Source: Candidatus Latescibacterota bacterium
Lineage (GTDB): Bacteria; Latescibacterota; UBA2968; GCA-2709665
Direction: 5' to 3'
Length of the DNA: 64,000 nucleotides
Assembly (NCBI GenBank): GCA_965205485.1
Contig: OZ242180.1
Coordinates: 4,832,001 to 4,896,000 of the forward strand
The position numbers are program-made. Shown here in pieces: positions 42,914 through 54,900 of the stretch. Position 1 is the stretch's first letter; the number at the start of each line of letters is the position of its first letter.

Positions 42914-45900
42914 GGGCGCCTCCATTTCTCGGGAAAATGCATTGTTCCCGTTGTACGACAAAGGCGGGAATCTAACAAAACAAGGCACGGATGTCAAGAC
43001 AGTTGCGATTGTTTAAGGCGGTATGGCCGTATGGTCAGGTCTGCGAATACGGACCACGCGCAACCGGTCCGCCCGACAGTTTGACGCGCATATCCGATCA
43101 CGTCATCAGGCCGGAACGAAGCCTGCTCGAGAGAGTGCCGATCGATGGCCGGCGCTGAACGAACAGCCGAAGCAATTGAACCGAACGCGGCTCCCGCCGG
43201 GTCAGCGGGCGGGGTCACGGTCCGGTCCGTGGTTTCCGGCCTGTTGCTCGTCCTGGGGCTGGACGCCCTGGCGGTCCACCTCCGGTACGTCGTGCACGGC
43301 TCGCTGATGACGTACAGCCATGTGCCGATGGCCATGCTCATCGTGTTTGTACTGATGATCATGGCCGGCGCGCTCCTGGCGCGGATTTCCGGATGGAAGC
43401 CTGCACCGGCGGAATGGCACGTCATTCTGGCGATGGGCGTCGTCGGCGCGGCCGTTCCCGGCTTCGGTCTGAGCGGCTATCTGCTTGGGTACATCGCATC
43501 CCCGTACTATTTCGCGACCGAAGTCAACGAATGGCATATCTACCTGCATCCGTACATCAACACCTGGCTGATCCCTTCAGACGAAAACAAGGCCGTCACC
43601 TGGTTCTTCGAAGGCGCACCCAAAGGCGCGCAGGTCCCCTGGGATGCCTGGGTGCTTCCGCTGTTGTGGTGGACCACGTTCATCGTCGCGGCGTTCGTGG
43701 TTCTCGGATGCGTCGCCGTCGTCTTTCGCAGACAGTGGGTACAGAACGAACGACTGGCGTTTCCGGCGATGGCGCCCCTGATCCACATGGCGGAAGAACC
43801 CGGCAGCGGAAGATTCGCACTCCCTGATTTCACGAAGAACTACCTGTTCTGGATCGGCTTCGGGCTGGCCTTCGGAATGATCGCCTGGAACTGCATCAAC
43901 TATTTCCTGCCCGGCTTTCCACGGTTTCCGGTCTATCGGGGCCGTTGGCTCTGGATCGACCGCCAGCATCCGCCCGCCTATTTCTTCATCGGTCTGTTTA
44001 CCATCTTCTTCTCCTATTTCGCCAGCCTGGACGTTCTGTTCAGCATCTGGTTCTTCGACCTGCTGTTCATTTCCGAAGGCGGCTGGCTGCACCGCCGGGG
44101 GTTTACGGCCATATCGCCGTACTATTACCGCGGCGTTTATTACTGGCAGACCAAGGGCGCATTCGCCATGCTGGCCGCCTCGGTCTTCTGGGTTGCCAGA
44201 CGCCACATCATGGATGTGTTCCGCAAGGCCTGGAACCGGGATCATCCGATGGACGACCGGGACGAACCGCTCTCCTGCCGTACGGCCGTCGTCGCCCTGC
44301 TCGTTGGGCTCGCGTTCATGTGGCTCTGGCTCTGGCGCATCGGCTTCGACCCGCTTCTGGCGGCCCTGCTCCTTCCGGCGGTCATCTTCACGTATGTCGG
44401 CCTGGCCAAGATTCTCGCGGAGACCGGCATGCCGTACACCAACGTGCCGGCGGGTCCGTGGGGTCTCGTGTCGCCATTCATCGGGTCATCGACCGTCAAC
44501 GAAAGCACACGGGTCGCCCTCCGGTTCGCGTCCAGGATCACCTCCCACTTCAAGGGGCTCTTCCTTCCCGCCCTCGCACACGCCGGGCGCGTTGCGGAAG
44601 GCGTCCGGGGCGGCCGGCGGCGTCTTGCGTATGCCGTCGTCCTGGCCTTTCTGGTCAGTTGGATCGCGAGCGTGCTGCTCACGATCCAGCTGGGATACCG
44701 GGACGGCGCCTACAATTTCAACTCCTGGGAAATCGTGCGCGCGGGGCCCAAGCATTTCGAAGGCACCGCGACGTCCGTCAAGAACTTCCTTACTAAACCG
44801 CCCGATCCGCCCGTCTACCGCGAACATCCCGACTATATGGTGTTTTTCGGCCTGGGCGGCCTGGCCACGCTCCTGCTCATTTTTCTGCGTCACCGTTTCG
44901 TCTGGTGGCCGTTGCATCCCGTCGGACTGGCCATATCCGGTTCGTACCTGGCCCGGCGAACCAGCCTGACGATATTGCTGGCCTGGCTGGTCAAACTGGT
45001 CATGCTGAAGATGGGCGGTCCTTCCGTATACAGGAAATCACGTCCCCTGTTCATTGGCCTGCTCGCCGGCTATATACTCGGAGTCGCCCTCTCGGCCTTC
45101 ATCGACGTCCTGTGGTTCCCGGAACGGGGCCACAGCGTTCATCGCTTCTGATCGGCGTCCGCCGGCGTATGTCCGGGATCGGAACCCGGGCACCCGCAAC
45201 GGTAGTGGTACTGCAGAAACCTTGATCAGGATGACTCAATGAAAACCCGTACACGCATCGGTCTTGCACTGGCGCTTCTCTTCGCCGTCGGGGCCTTCGC
45301 CGGCCTTGCGGTGGGACCGGAACGCGTCAACCCCTACCTTGCCGCAATCCTTGGACTCCATGCGCCCGTTGCCCCACCGGCCCCTTCCGTTCCGGAAGCG
45401 AACGCCACTTCGGTTCGCGTACTCGATACCGTATCGGACGCCGGCGTGAGGTCGCACGTTGCCCGCTTTACGGAACACCGGTCGCGAGTTCCCGGATACC
45501 CCGGACACGCCGCTGCCGCGGAATACATCCGGCGCAGTTTCGAGAGCGCCGGTCTCCGGGACGTTCGCACCGAGCCGTTCGACGTCACCTCGCCCGTTGA
45601 CAAGGGCGGCAGCGTGTCGCTGTTGCGGGACAATGTCACGTTTCCCATCCACGCGATCTGGCCGAACCTCGTCAAAACCTCCACACTGCCGCGCGAAGGG
45701 GTCCGCACGCGGTTGATCTACGGCGCGACCGGGGAATTCGCCGACTTCAACGGTCATGCGCTCGAGGGCGCGGCCGTTCTCATGGAATTCAATACGCGGA
45801 ACAACTGGCTGAACGCGGCCACGCTGGGTGCGGGGCAGATCATCTTCATCGAACCGGATTCAACCTTCTATACCGAAGCCGAGCAGAAATTCCTGCAGGT

Positions 45901-51900: not shown

Positions 51901-54900
51901 CGGAAGGCCGGGAGCTCGTGTATCAGTTCGAAGTGGACCAGGTGCCCTCCTTCGACGGTTCCTTTCTGCAGAGTTCGGACGACGAGCCGATCCTGTTCGA
52001 AGCCATCAAGCCGGTTGTGATCGCCATCGGACTCGCCGTCGGCCTGGTCTCGTTCGTGGTTCTGTCCGTCCTGGGCCTGCCGGTCCTGCTCATCTTCGGA
52101 TACATACGGAGTCTGACGAGCATTCCCCACGTGATGATCACCGAGATCATCGGTGCGCTCCTCGCGCGGTACTATTTCTGGAAGCGCTTCGGCAGACAGC
52201 AATGGCGCCTCTACGCGGCGGTGTTGTACGTCGGATTCTCGGTGGGCATGTCCCTGGTGGGCATGGCCTCCGTCTCCATTGCAATGATACAAAAGGCCGT
52301 CTCGGTACTGTTGTTCTGAGCATTGGCTTTGGTTCCGCCCGCATCTATTATGTCGGGTTGAATTGTCGCATCCGGACCGTTCGATCAAACACACCAGGAC
52401 GGCAGCATGTCAGGCGCGATCGGCATGATCGAAGTCGAAGGCGTTGCCGGGATTATTCTCGCGTCGGACGCTGCTTGCAAGGCCGCCGGAGTGGACCTCC
52501 TGGGCTGGGAGTCCATCGGCGGATTCACCACAGTCTTTCTCGGCGGATCCATCAGCAGGGTGGCAACCGCGCTCAAGAGCGGCGAACAAGCAGCCAGAGA
52601 GGTGGCGGGGCACGTGGTGGCGGCGCCGATGACACACCCGGAACCCGCCTGCCGGGATTACGTTTCGAATGAAATCGCCACGGAGCGGCGCACGCCGACC
52701 GGCGCGCTGGGTCTGATCGAGACGAGAGGATACGGCGCGCACGTCACCGCCAACGACAATATGGTGAAGGCGGCCGACGTCCGGGTCTTCAACGTGCTCA
52801 CCGTACACAACCGGGTGGTCTGCTCCCTTATACTTGGGGACGTGGCTTCCTTGACCGAGGCCCTGCCCGCGGGTCGCGCGAGCGTCGAGACAGGAGAGAA
52901 TTTCCTCGGCGCCGCCCTCATCCCCAAGCCCCTGCCCGACGTCCTGCGGGCATTCGGCCCCTGAGCGCCGTCGTGTCCGCACGAAATCATGCCCTGGGGA
53001 TTCTGGAGACCCGCGGCATGACCGCGCTTGTCGCGGCCCTGGACGCCATGCTGAAAACCGTGGACGTCAGGGTCCTGGGGCGTCACGGCGTTGGATCCGG
53101 CTGGCTGACCGTCGTGATCGAAGGCGTCGTTTCGGACGTGGAGGCCGCCATTCGGATCGGGCGATCCGAGGCCGAGAACCACGGCGAGTTGATCAGCGCC
53201 GACGTGATCGCCGGCCCGGCCCCGGGCGCCCTCGCGTCGATGCCGCACATGGCGGGCGCGGGCACGTCGAAACCGGTCGGCTCGCAGGCGATGGGCATCC
53301 TCGAAACACGCGGAATGGTACCCCTCATCCGCGGCGCCGACGCCATGATCAAGAGCGCGCCCGTCCACGTCGCCGGCTGGACTTCCATTGGCGGCGCGCT
53401 GGTTCATCTCGTGGTCCGGGGCGATATATCCTCGGTCCAGACTGCCCTTCAGACCGGTAAAGCGTGTGCGGATGAAGTCGGGGAAGTCTACGCGACCCTG
53501 GCGATTCCCAGCCCTGAAGCGGGTATCGCCCCATTGCTTCCGGATCCGCCGATTTCAAACGGGCGCAAGGAAGACGCCGGGGCGCTCGGTATTCTTGAAA
53601 CAACGGGTTACGTGTCCGCGGTCGGCGGATCGGACGCGATGGTCAAAGCGGCCGACGTCGACCTTGTGCGCCTCGTCATCGCCAGCGGAGGCCGGGTGGA
53701 CGCGCTGGTGAAAGGCGAACTCGACGCGGTCCAGGCGGCCGTGGAAGCCGGTATCGATGGCGCGCGGGAGGCCGGGGAACTGAATGCCTCCTGTGTCGTT
53801 TCCCGCCCGTCTTCCGACATCATGGCCTGCTTCGGCGGGAACACCGTCAGGAATACGTCAGGCTTGCATCAGGCGATGGGACTGATCGAAACGCGCAGCA
53901 CCGTGGCCCTGGTCAAAGCCGTGGATCAGATGTTGAAGTCCGCGGACGTGGAATACGAGGGCCGGTACAAAGTGGGGTACTTTCTCACGGCAAGCGTCGT
54001 CCGGGGAGACGTCGGCGCGGTACGTGCCGCCCTGAATGTCGGCGCCGGGGAAGCGGAGAGGTACGGCGAACTGGTGTCTGCACACCTTATACCCCATCCC
54101 TATCCGGCGCTGGAAGAACGGCTGATCCACTGATCGATCGCTGAATACCCGGGAATGATCGATGATCCGTATTGACGATGCGGTTGTTACCGAACAATTG
54201 CTCAAGGACAGACTGGGCGCTGAGCGGGAAGTCGAAATCTGCCCGCGGGCGAAGCTGACGCCGCTGGCGCTGGACTATCTGGCGGCCAACCGGGTCCAGG
54301 TATCCAGAAGAGAGGCGGCGGCCGCCGGTCCGCGGACTTCAGCGCCGGCCGCCCGTCGGAAATCCGGCGAACGGAAAGAATTCAAGGGCATCTTCTGCCC
54401 CAATATCGTCATTTTCGACAGCAATGACCGGATCAACTACGCGGAAATGGAGCGATATGTCAACTGGCTCATCGAAGCCGGCATCCACGGGTTGTATCCC
54501 AATGGCAGCACGGGCGAATTCGTGCGTCTTTCCAGCGACGAGCGCAAGGAGGTCGTGCGCCTGGTCACGAACGTCAACCGTGGGCGCGTGCCCGTTCTGG
54601 CCGGCGCGAGCGAAGCCAACCTCCGCGACGTGCTCAGAATGAGCGAATACTACGCCGGCATCGACGTCGACGCCATTTCTCTCGTACCCCCGTACTATTA
54701 CGAGATCTCGGACACCAGCCTCTTCGAGTACTTCGCTGAGATCGCGAGACAGACGCCTCTCGACGTCCTGTTATACAATATCCCCCAGTTCACGCAGGAA
54801 CTCACGCTGGACATCATGGAACAGTTGCTTCCCTTCGAGCGAATCATGGGTACCAAAGATTCCAGCCGGGATATGCCGCGGCTGATCAACACCATGCATC

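What a model noticed while it worked through the whole genome (the two positions that open the first line are those of the whole stretch)
43145..52319. MacB/FtsX-type 8-TM permeases with a whole M28 aminopeptidase-like (PA-domain) module built into the first periplasmic l [...]
Four paralogous 1,511-1,598-aa proteins (g03934 C1:4877239-4881774, g00777, g03036, g02335) have the 1+3+1+3 transmembrane layout of double-FtsX (MacB/LolCE-type, type VII ABC) permeases, but their first periplasmic loop is ~800 residues and folds as a complete M28-family aminopeptidase domain with a protease-associated insertion, then a beta-rich domain and a helical stalk. Type VII ABC systems transmit force to periplasmic partners; here the partner enzyme fold is part of the permease. 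Canonical M28 metal/catalytic residues are partly replaced (Y-Y-D ... G-A-E ... H-H, all conserved), so it may be a binding module or an enzyme with altered chemistry. Every copy lies next to a DUF6785/OPT-l [...]
Evidence so far: Call 150: hydropathy peaks g03934 7 | 812, 840, 872 | 939 | 1233, 1258, 1318, same pattern in all four and in the ordinary double-FtsX permease g01297. Calls 21, 152: Pfam Peptidase_M28 (E 2e-5 to 1e-10) at ~262-486, FtsX (E ~1e-14) at ~1230-1430. Call 154: 456 proteins with E<1e-40 to res 20-810; the 120 best are mostly 1,480-1,610 aa (49-94% id). Call 161: AF2 of res 20-810, 26-row alignment, pLDDT 84.0, pTM 0.84. Call 163 (VIA-align): Aeromonas aminopeptidase 1rtq Z 27.7 (270 res, rmsd 2.7), PA-domain aminopeptidases 2ek8 Z 27.0 (386 res), 3iib Z 24.9, PaAP 8ac7 Z 24.8, transferrin receptor 7zqs Z 24.6; model range 31-494. 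Call 155: Y269, D270, H315 invariant, E283, H316 near-invariant in [...]
(Added by a program. Inside this text positions count along the whole contig: contig position 4,832,001 is position 1 of the stretch shown here. "Call 12" and the like, gene names such as g00115 and contig names such as C1 are that model's own, and its searches are not shown. The text may have been shortened before it was handed on; [...] marks where a part breaks off. The agent that wrote the report below was given it as the finding of a first reader that could run no searches.)

Follow-up and report, generated by a model that had tools for sequence, protein, structure and literature searches.

The report
ABC motor paired with OPT permeases
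This giant membrane protein, with a probably inactive peptidase-shaped outer head, is one half of an unstudied ATP-driven membrane motor whose genes travel with peptide-transporter-like permeases, and it most likely helps these bacteria take up nutrients.

Summary
The 1,511-aa gene and its three paralogs are real, and the M28/PA fold is confirmed (Z 29.8 to 1rtq). Two first-reader claims fail. (1) It is not a double-FtsX permease: it has one MacB unit (residues 910-1349) plus an unrelated three-helix bundle and a cytoplasmic domain. (2) 'H-H' is not conserved: only His334 is, and the di-zinc site is broken in all 152 sequences. The missing half of the motor is a 228-aa FtsX protein, one copy per genome. 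In compact genomes it lies in one gene run: DUF6785, TPR, permease, OPT-like, unknown, PqqD, small FtsX, ATPase. Both window neighbours are distant OPT-family homologues. All four components tested occur in the same 33 of 41 good genomes, but the absences are one family. Best reading (0.45): an ATP-energised uptake system with one shared energiser and many OPT-fold permeases (23 DUF6785 here), the M28 head serving as a binding module. Physical coupling and cargo are untested. I found no paper on it. This scan found the family before on other DNA, including the eight-gene system (e1-7777533).

The parts
41714..42502 (+). LolD/MacB-type ABC ATPase, 262 aa; a second copy of the ATPase clade found in the cassette; separated from the next gene by an opposite-strand tRNA, so probably not co-transcribed
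   Evidence: NCBIfam LolD E 9e-69, below the curated cut-off; 328 bits to the ATPase beside the small FtsX versus 188 for the next; shares a long stem (0.87) with cassette ATPases, support label lost on re-rooting; same position in 14 of 14 close relatives L005-L018
42845..42920 (-). tRNA-Phe(GAA) between the ATPase and DUF6785 genes
   Evidence: ARAGORN
43145..45151 (+). DUF6785/DUF6784 polytopic membrane protein, 668 aa; distant OPT-superfamily homologue; one of 23 paralogs in the genome
   Evidence: Pfam E 4e-97 and 2e-21; 23 paralogs; profile vs 13 canonical OPTs P 95%, E 2e-8, 435 columns
45239..49774 (+). Large type VII ABC permease, 1,511 aa (whole gene)
45257..45313 (+). N-terminal hydrophobic helix (residues 7-25): anchor or signal peptide, not distinguished
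   Evidence: hydropathy and basic N-terminus
45386..46768 (+). M28-fold domain with PA insertion (residues about 50-510); site map to Aeromonas aminopeptidase: His97>Tyr287, Asp117>Glu302, Glu151>His334, Glu152>His335 (Phe in most), Asp179=Asp372, His256>Asp470
   Evidence: fold; residue map from profile alignments and motif reading for Asp372, not superposition; conservation:
46787..47398 (+). Beta-rich domains (residues about 517-720), fold not identified
   Evidence: secondary structure of model; not covered by the listed fold matches
47432..47671 (+). Three-helix stalk (residues about 732-811) whose last helix runs on into the membrane
   Evidence: helix 784-834 is continuous in both models
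47672..47944 (+). Conserved three-helix membrane bundle (residues about 812-902), not FtsX-like, no coupling helix
   Evidence: hhalign 0.2-1.3% vs FtsX profiles; near-invariant P825, E831, R832, H862, P863, F865
47966..49285 (+). Single MacB-type unit: elbow helix, TM1, periplasmic core domain, TM2-4 with one coupling helix (residues about 910-1349)
   Evidence: YtrF Z 15.3, MacB Z 13.9-14.3, FtsX Z 13.3 over model 210-650; Foldseek MacB E 2e-10
49316..49696 (+). Conserved C-terminal cytoplasmic alpha/beta domain (residues about 1360-1486), tentatively helix-grip (START/Aha1-like)
   Evidence: several matches at Z 7.1-7.8, which is only middling; conservation
49899..52319 (+). OPT-like 'peptide transporter', 806 aa, with a soluble insertion (about 553-698) absent from its 682-aa paralog
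   Evidence: no Pfam hit itself; homologues in three relatives pass the OPT cut-off at 35-36 bits; profile vs canonical OPTs P 88%, 529 columns; paralog match

Best explanation
The protein is the large subunit of a heterodimeric type VII ABC motor that belongs to a multi-gene nutrient-uptake system. Shown: it has one MacB unit, an extra three-helix bundle, a pseudo-peptidase head and a cytoplasmic domain, and its gene travels with a 228-aa FtsX protein, a dedicated ATPase, a PqqD protein, an unknown duplicated cytoplasmic protein and two families of OPT homologues. Inferred: the small FtsX protein supplies the second coupling helix (as LolC and LolE do); ATP-driven motion is passed to the OPT-fold permeases, which form the solute path; the M28/PA head binds cargo rather than cutting it; one energiser set is shared by several large subunits and many DUF6785 permeases that set specificity, like shared-energiser ECF transporters (recalled analogy). 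Likely cargo: small organic nutrients such as sugar acids, oligosaccharide fragments or peptides.
For: Single FtsX unit. Gene run permease, OPT-like, unknown, PqqD, small FtsX, ATPase in 5 genome loci (L030-L032, L034, L035) and 4 of 80 metagenome loci, one from Armatimonadota; 2 more lack only the small FtsX. In 5 of 5 genomes of a second phylum the last four genes form their own cassette. Permease, small FtsX, DUF6785 and OPT-like each found in the same 33 of 41 good genomes. Small FtsX has one match in 44 of 44 positive genomes and 31 of 32 in the second phylum, against 23 DUF6785 here and 11-29 matches there. Permease-DUF6785 fusion in a 56-member cluster. OPT homology of both neighbours. 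DUF6785 neighbours are mostly catabolic enzymes. No Glu at the Glu151 or Glu152 position and never both His ligands in 152 sequences.
Against: No physical contact, direction of transport or cargo was shown. The 8 good genomes lacking the system are all one family, so co-absence is a single event. 12 of 55 genome loci have no OPT-fold neighbour within 3 kb. Characterised OPTs are proton-coupled and need no ATPase (search listing of PMC12831333; own knowledge), so DUF6785 proteins may work alone. No substrate-binding-protein partner is needed by this model, but none of the head's ligands is known. The genome also has ordinary ABC importers (21 PF00528 matches). The pocket residues are strongly conserved, which also fits an enzyme.
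Confidence: 0.45

Rival explanations
1. Sensor or gate: the ABC motor and its head sense an outside ligand and switch proton-driven OPT-fold permeases on or off, as BceAB acts on the membrane partner BceS.
For: The same gene linkage. BceAB has a membrane-intrinsic partner (PMC12646458 Discussion). Extra cytoplasmic binding-type domains: PqqD and a possible helix-grip domain.
Against: No kinase or regulator was seen in the compact gene runs I listed (partly cut). One sensor for 23 permeases in unrelated catabolic loci is hard to picture.
Confidence: 0.2
2. Active enzyme with altered chemistry: a YbbAP-TesA-like machine in which the motor feeds a substrate to a fused hydrolase or transferase using His334 and a carboxylate-rich one-metal site (Glu302, Asp372, Asp470); products enter through the OPT permeases.
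For: His334 147/152, Asp372 144/152, Asp464 142/152, Arg466 144/152, Asp470 131/152. The best core match, 2anp, has His at the Glu151 position, and a paper title calls that E151H mutant functional (reference list of PMC4320195). YbbAP-TesA precedent.
Against: Three of five metal ligands of the Aeromonas enzyme (His97, Glu152, His256; Table 1 of PMC7522609) are replaced together; the mutant keeps them all. Non-catalytic M28 folds in membrane complexes also match (transferrin receptor, nicalin, nicastrin).
Confidence: 0.15
3. Peptide export or maturation: PqqD binds a precursor peptide in the cytoplasm, an OPT-fold channel exports it, and the motor with its M28 head releases or processes it outside.
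For: PqqD domain E 1.5e-10 in the gene run; one PqqD-small FtsX fusion, on a single contig; type VII systems often export.
Against: No modification enzyme was seen in the compact gene runs listed; short precursor ORFs under 50-70 aa were not examined. DUF6785 neighbours are catabolic. OPTs are importers.
Confidence: 0.1
4. Assembly machine: like eukaryotic nicalin in multipass membrane-protein biogenesis (role recalled), the complex helps insert or fold the many OPT-fold proteins, which are clients.
For: The family profile matches nicalin at E 2e-11 over profile 243-524, stronger and longer than Aeromonas aminopeptidase at 2e-8, with a nearly gap-free loop after the conserved Asp and a shared Arg near the lost His256. 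All-or-none presence with the OPT-fold genes fits too.
Against: With the core-only profile nicalin ties with true aminopeptidases, and it is not among the top 50 structural matches. Canonical OPTs occur widely without this system (control genomes).
Confidence: 0.07

Closest known systems
LolCDE / MacB / YtrEF / FtsEX (type VII ABC, single 4-TM units)
   Same: One elbow helix, TM1, periplasmic core domain, TM2-4 with coupling helix; LolD-like ATPase; probable heterodimer as in LolC-LolE
   Different: 800-residue pseudo-peptidase extension, extra three-helix bundle, C-terminal cytoplasmic domain, a partner FtsX with almost no periplasmic domain, and OPT-fold and PqqD gene partners
YbbAP-TesA (PMC12646458; passages and Discussion read)
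   Same: Type VII ABC with an outer hydrolase-fold partner
   Different: YbbP is a duplicated permease and TesA a separate active esterase; here a single unit carries a fused M28 fold with a broken metal site
M28 PA-domain aminopeptidases (2ek8, BSAP, PaAP) and Aeromonas aminopeptidase
   Same: Fold with PA insertion, Z 26-30
   Different: His97, Glu151, Glu152 and His256 positions replaced
M28-fold ectodomains of membrane complexes (transferrin receptor, nicalin, nicastrin, GPAA1)
   Same: M28 fold with degenerate site on a membrane anchor
   Different: Eukaryotic, no ABC module; closeness to nicalin is a lead only
OPT/YSL family (Pfam PF03169)
   Same: Both flanking proteins align over 435-529 columns
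   Different: Very divergent (14-15% profile identity); known members work without an ATPase
Shared-energiser ECF transporters (recalled, not tested)
   Same: One energiser per genome and many scattered specificity subunits
   Different: No fold in common; only an analogy of copy number

Membership tests
Type VII ABC permease (MacB/LolCE) | 4-TM FtsX unit with coupling helix and periplasmic core domain between TM1 and TM2 | tested here: met
   Pfam FtsX; structure matches over residues 910-1349
Type VII ABC permease (MacB/LolCE) | Cognate LolD/FtsE-like ATPase | tested here: met
   Dedicated ATPase clade in the gene run; two copies in this genome. Pairing itself is inferred
Type VII ABC permease (MacB/LolCE) | ATP-driven mechanotransmission | not testable with these tools
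   needs structures or assays
Double-FtsX permeases (YbbP, ADOP type) | Two FtsX repeats, each with a coupling helix, in one chain | tested here: not met
   First bundle 0.2-1.3% vs FtsX profiles; ordinary double permeases in the genome show two hits; one FtsX stretch in each of the 19 long homologues that have one, of 20 scanned; YbbP aligns only one half
M28 peptidases | M28 fold (with PA insertion) | tested here: met
   Pfam M28 in 48 of 48 cores
M28 peptidases | Metal ligands His97, Asp117, Glu152, Asp179, His256 | tested here: not met
   His at 97 in 11 of 152, Glu at 152 in 0, His at 256 in 1, both His in 0; mapped by alignment, not superposition
M28 peptidases | General base Glu151 | tested here: not met
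   Glu in 0 of 152, His in 147
M28 peptidases | Hydrolytic activity | not testable with these tools
   needs an assay
OPT family (flanking genes) | Sequence homology to PF03169 | tested here: met
   Three OPT-like genes and one DUF6785 gene of relatives pass the cut-off; hhalign 88% and 95% vs 0.2-0.3% for controls. The window proteins themselves do not hit PF03169
OPT family (flanking genes) | YS1-type fold | not tested
OPT family (flanking genes) | Proton-coupled import of peptides or metal chelates | not testable with these tools
   needs a transport assay

The most novel reading that the evidence does not exclude
A new class of primary-active importer: a type VII ABC heterodimer uses ATP to drive interchangeable permeases of the OPT secondary-carrier fold, with a fused pseudo-peptidase as its substrate-capture domain and dozens of DUF6785 paralogs as plug-in specificity subunits; possibly a main nutrient-uptake route of Latescibacterota and other uncultured phyla. 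Its head may also be a prokaryotic relative of the nicalin/nicastrin ectodomain.
Probability: 0.3. Interest if true: 0.93.

Novelty: new variant of a known kind. Interest (0 to 1): 0.72.

Why it matters
Type VII ABC systems get their function from their partners, and none with an OPT-fold partner or a fused pseudo-peptidase turned up in my paper searches. The family is large (681 clusters at 50% identity with E<1e-30) and DUF6785 is heavily expanded in at least two phyla. If the coupling is real, it joins an ABC motor to a secondary-carrier fold and gives a function to a big gene family in uncultured polymer-degrading bacteria. The compact gene run is a defined target for expression and cryo-EM.

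Tried and rejected
Double-FtsX architecture: rejected. Conserved H-H motif: rejected. Orphan permeases without ATPase: rejected. Complex prediction of the paralog's membrane parts with its OPT-like neighbour: no verdict, score 0.22 against a mark of 0.32, controls not folded; it says nothing either way. OPT homology by profile against PDB: no hit; members against Pfam: OPT once at E 0.17 of 32; it appeared only with genome-level scoring and profile-profile comparison. Unknown 294-aa protein: no PDB or Pfam hit, Atlas clusters unnamed; only an internal duplication (P 83%). Expression: no RNA holder listed. Sigma-70 and terminator scans near chance level. Naming taxa of distant homologues: 3 of 20 clusters looked up carried names besides the fusion cluster; archaeal occurrence not tested. 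Beta-rich region 517-720 was not folded alone, so no fold is claimed. Paper searches without a description of this system: DUF6785, 0 papers; FtsX+M28+permease terms, 7 listed; PqqD+OPT, 0; RRE+PqqD+ABC+FtsX, 4 listed; Latescibacter terms; nicalin+nicastrin+M28, 2 listed. Listings were judged by title and abstract start only. Subscription journals and supplements were not seen and could mention the operon.
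Full report
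Observation. The window holds an ABC ATPase (41714-42502), a tRNA-Phe on the other strand, then three same-strand genes with gaps of 87 and 124 bases: DUF6785 (43145-45151), the 1,511-aa permease (45239-49774) and an 806-aa membrane protein (49899-52319). Close relatives are mostly labelled Latescibacterota, often at 85-98% identity. Four paralogs exist, 36-60% identical. The family is large: 681 clusters at 50% identity with E<1e-30; of the best 150, 102 of the 106 that are at least 1,350 aa long carry the C-terminal FtsX part.

Architecture. A model of residues 50-960 (40 rows, pLDDT 88.3) matches M28 peptidases over residues 50-509: 1rtq Z 29.8, rmsd 2.7; 2ek8 Z 28.5; transferrin receptor Z 26.4. 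Beta-rich domains and a three-helix stalk follow, the last helix running into the membrane. A model of residues 700-1511 (pLDDT 85.3) matches MacB, LolC/E, YtrF and FtsX only over residues about 910-1349; YbbP aligns with one half only. The first three-helix bundle has no coupling helix and scores 0.2-1.3% against FtsX profiles, against 99.4% for the second bundle. So the protein is a single MacB unit with a long N-terminal extension, an extra conserved bundle, and a cytoplasmic domain that resembles helix-grip folds at middling Z 7.1-7.8. Topology rests on hydropathy, charge bias and the models; whether helix 7-25 is cleaved is unknown.

The pocket. Ligand numbering for the Aeromonas enzyme is from Table 1 of PMC7522609 (passage). 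Profile alignments map His97 to Tyr287, Asp117 to Glu302, Glu151 to His334, Glu152 to position 335 and His256 to Asp470; Asp179 to Asp372 is my motif reading. In 152 aligned sequences (a few duplicates included) Tyr287 occurs in 115, Glu or Asp at 302 in 132, His334 in 147, His335 in 25, Asp372 in 144 and Asp470 in 131; none has Glu at 151 or 152 and none has both His ligands. The canonical site is therefore lost but a different pocket is conserved. The top core match, 2anp, carries His at the Glu151 position; a reference title calls that mutant functional (title only), so residual chemistry is not excluded. Nicalin scores as well as the aminopeptidases and shares the loop after Asp289 almost gap-free; this is a lead only.

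The system. Both neighbours are distant OPT homologues: profile comparison with 13 canonical OPTs gives P 95% (DUF6785) and 88% (the 806-aa family), against 0.2-0.3% for controls, and four relatives pass the Pfam OPT cut-off. Of 55 permease loci from genomes (13 near-identical ones, L006-L018, left out) 39 have the OPT-like gene downstream and 43 have either family within 3 kb; 8 of the 12 misses are one clade. Of 80 metagenome loci 72 have either family; 7 of the 8 misses end at the contig edge upstream. In five loci from genomes with one permease (or one match) the run continues with an unknown 294-aa protein, a PqqD protein, a 228-aa FtsX permease with almost no periplasmic domain, and an ATPase; a TPR protein precedes it, and DUF6785 too in four of them. 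The run recurs in 4 of 80 metagenome loci, one from Armatimonadota, and in 2 more without the small FtsX. In five genomes of a second phylum the last four genes form a separate cassette. This genome has all parts, scattered: unknown protein and PqqD at 4.24 Mb, small FtsX and ATPase at 2.73 Mb; the window ATPase groups with the cassette ATPases. Longer forms of the small FtsX are named from Planctomycetota.

Co-occurrence and copy number. In 61 genomes of the phylum, the permease, small FtsX, DUF6785 and OPT-like queries each match 33 of 41 good genomes; the 8 without are all family f9 (0 of 13), so this is one evolutionary event. The small FtsX gives one match in every positive genome (44 of 44; 31 of 32 in the second phylum, the other split over two contig ends). 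DUF6785 has 23 copies here and 11-29 matches per genome in the second phylum. A permease-DUF6785 fusion forms a 56-member cluster, with the 2,120-aa length listed four times; I checked domains only in the representative. A PqqD-small FtsX fusion is on one contig only. I scanned 63 hand-picked neighbours out of about 150 called; many are oxidoreductases, PhyH dioxygenases, sugar-phosphate-isomerase-type barrels, a mannonate dehydratase, heparinase-like proteins, aminotransferases and amidohydrolases, which suggests catabolic cargo of several kinds.

Mechanism. Shown: domain layout, broken metal site, gene linkage, copy-number pattern, OPT homology. Inferred: the large and small FtsX proteins form the heterodimer that an ATPase pair needs; its motion acts on OPT-fold permeases, perhaps through the unique three-helix bundle; the head captures cargo; DUF6785 paralogs are exchangeable specificity subunits. 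I put this at 0.45, a sensing or gating role at 0.2, an altered enzyme at 0.15, peptide export at 0.1 and an assembly machine at 0.07. That the genes act in one system I put at about 0.85.

Known systems and novelty. The nearest described case is YbbAP-TesA; its Discussion (PMC12646458, read) lists type VII partners as TesA, EnvC, TolC, LolA and the membrane protein BceS. The OPT evolution paper PMC3061005 has no occurrence of FtsX, M28 or PqqD (word search). My searches found no description; subscription journals and supplements were not covered. Earlier notes of this scan report the same family in four other genomes and the eight-gene system once; I had reached the cassette and the single-unit reading before seeing them, while the OPT lead for DUF6785 came. 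Verdict: real, a new variant of type VII ABC systems, possibly a new transporter class; interest 0.72.

Noticed in passing
window 52407-55331 (+): Two BMC-domain shell genes (2 and 4 domains) followed by a DHDPS-family aldolase with an N-terminal extension: a microcompartment locus right after the OPT-like gene.
   Followed up: no
window 46010-46753 (M28 core): Sequence resemblance to nicalin (E 2e-11) and weakly nicastrin (E 0.003); possible prokaryotic relative of these ectodomains.
   Followed up: partly
window 49899-52319, residues about 553-698: Soluble insertion in the OPT-like protein; relatives carry other insertions, one with propeller repeats (L030:5842-8718).
   Followed up: no
P0056, P0072, P0082, P0102: Giant family members of 2,451-3,053 aa with added Big_5 Ig-like or LysM domains, suggesting variable surface-binding modules.
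   Followed up: no
P0394 and related 450-480-aa proteins: Planctomycetota forms of the small FtsX partner carry a periplasmic domain with weak DUF7408/GATase-like matches.
   Followed up: no
L031:16628-17365 and window 41714-42502: The dedicated ATPases share a conserved C-terminal tail that could be a binding strand for the PqqD protein; speculation.
   Followed up: no
L196 (G001:C415:3649-4443) and L190: A third, about 595-aa weakly OPT-like gene; in G001 it lies beside a DUF6785 and an OPT-like gene.
   Followed up: no
L001:7401-8600 (-): S-adenosylmethionine decarboxylase fused to spermidine synthase directly downstream of the closest paralog.
   Followed up: no
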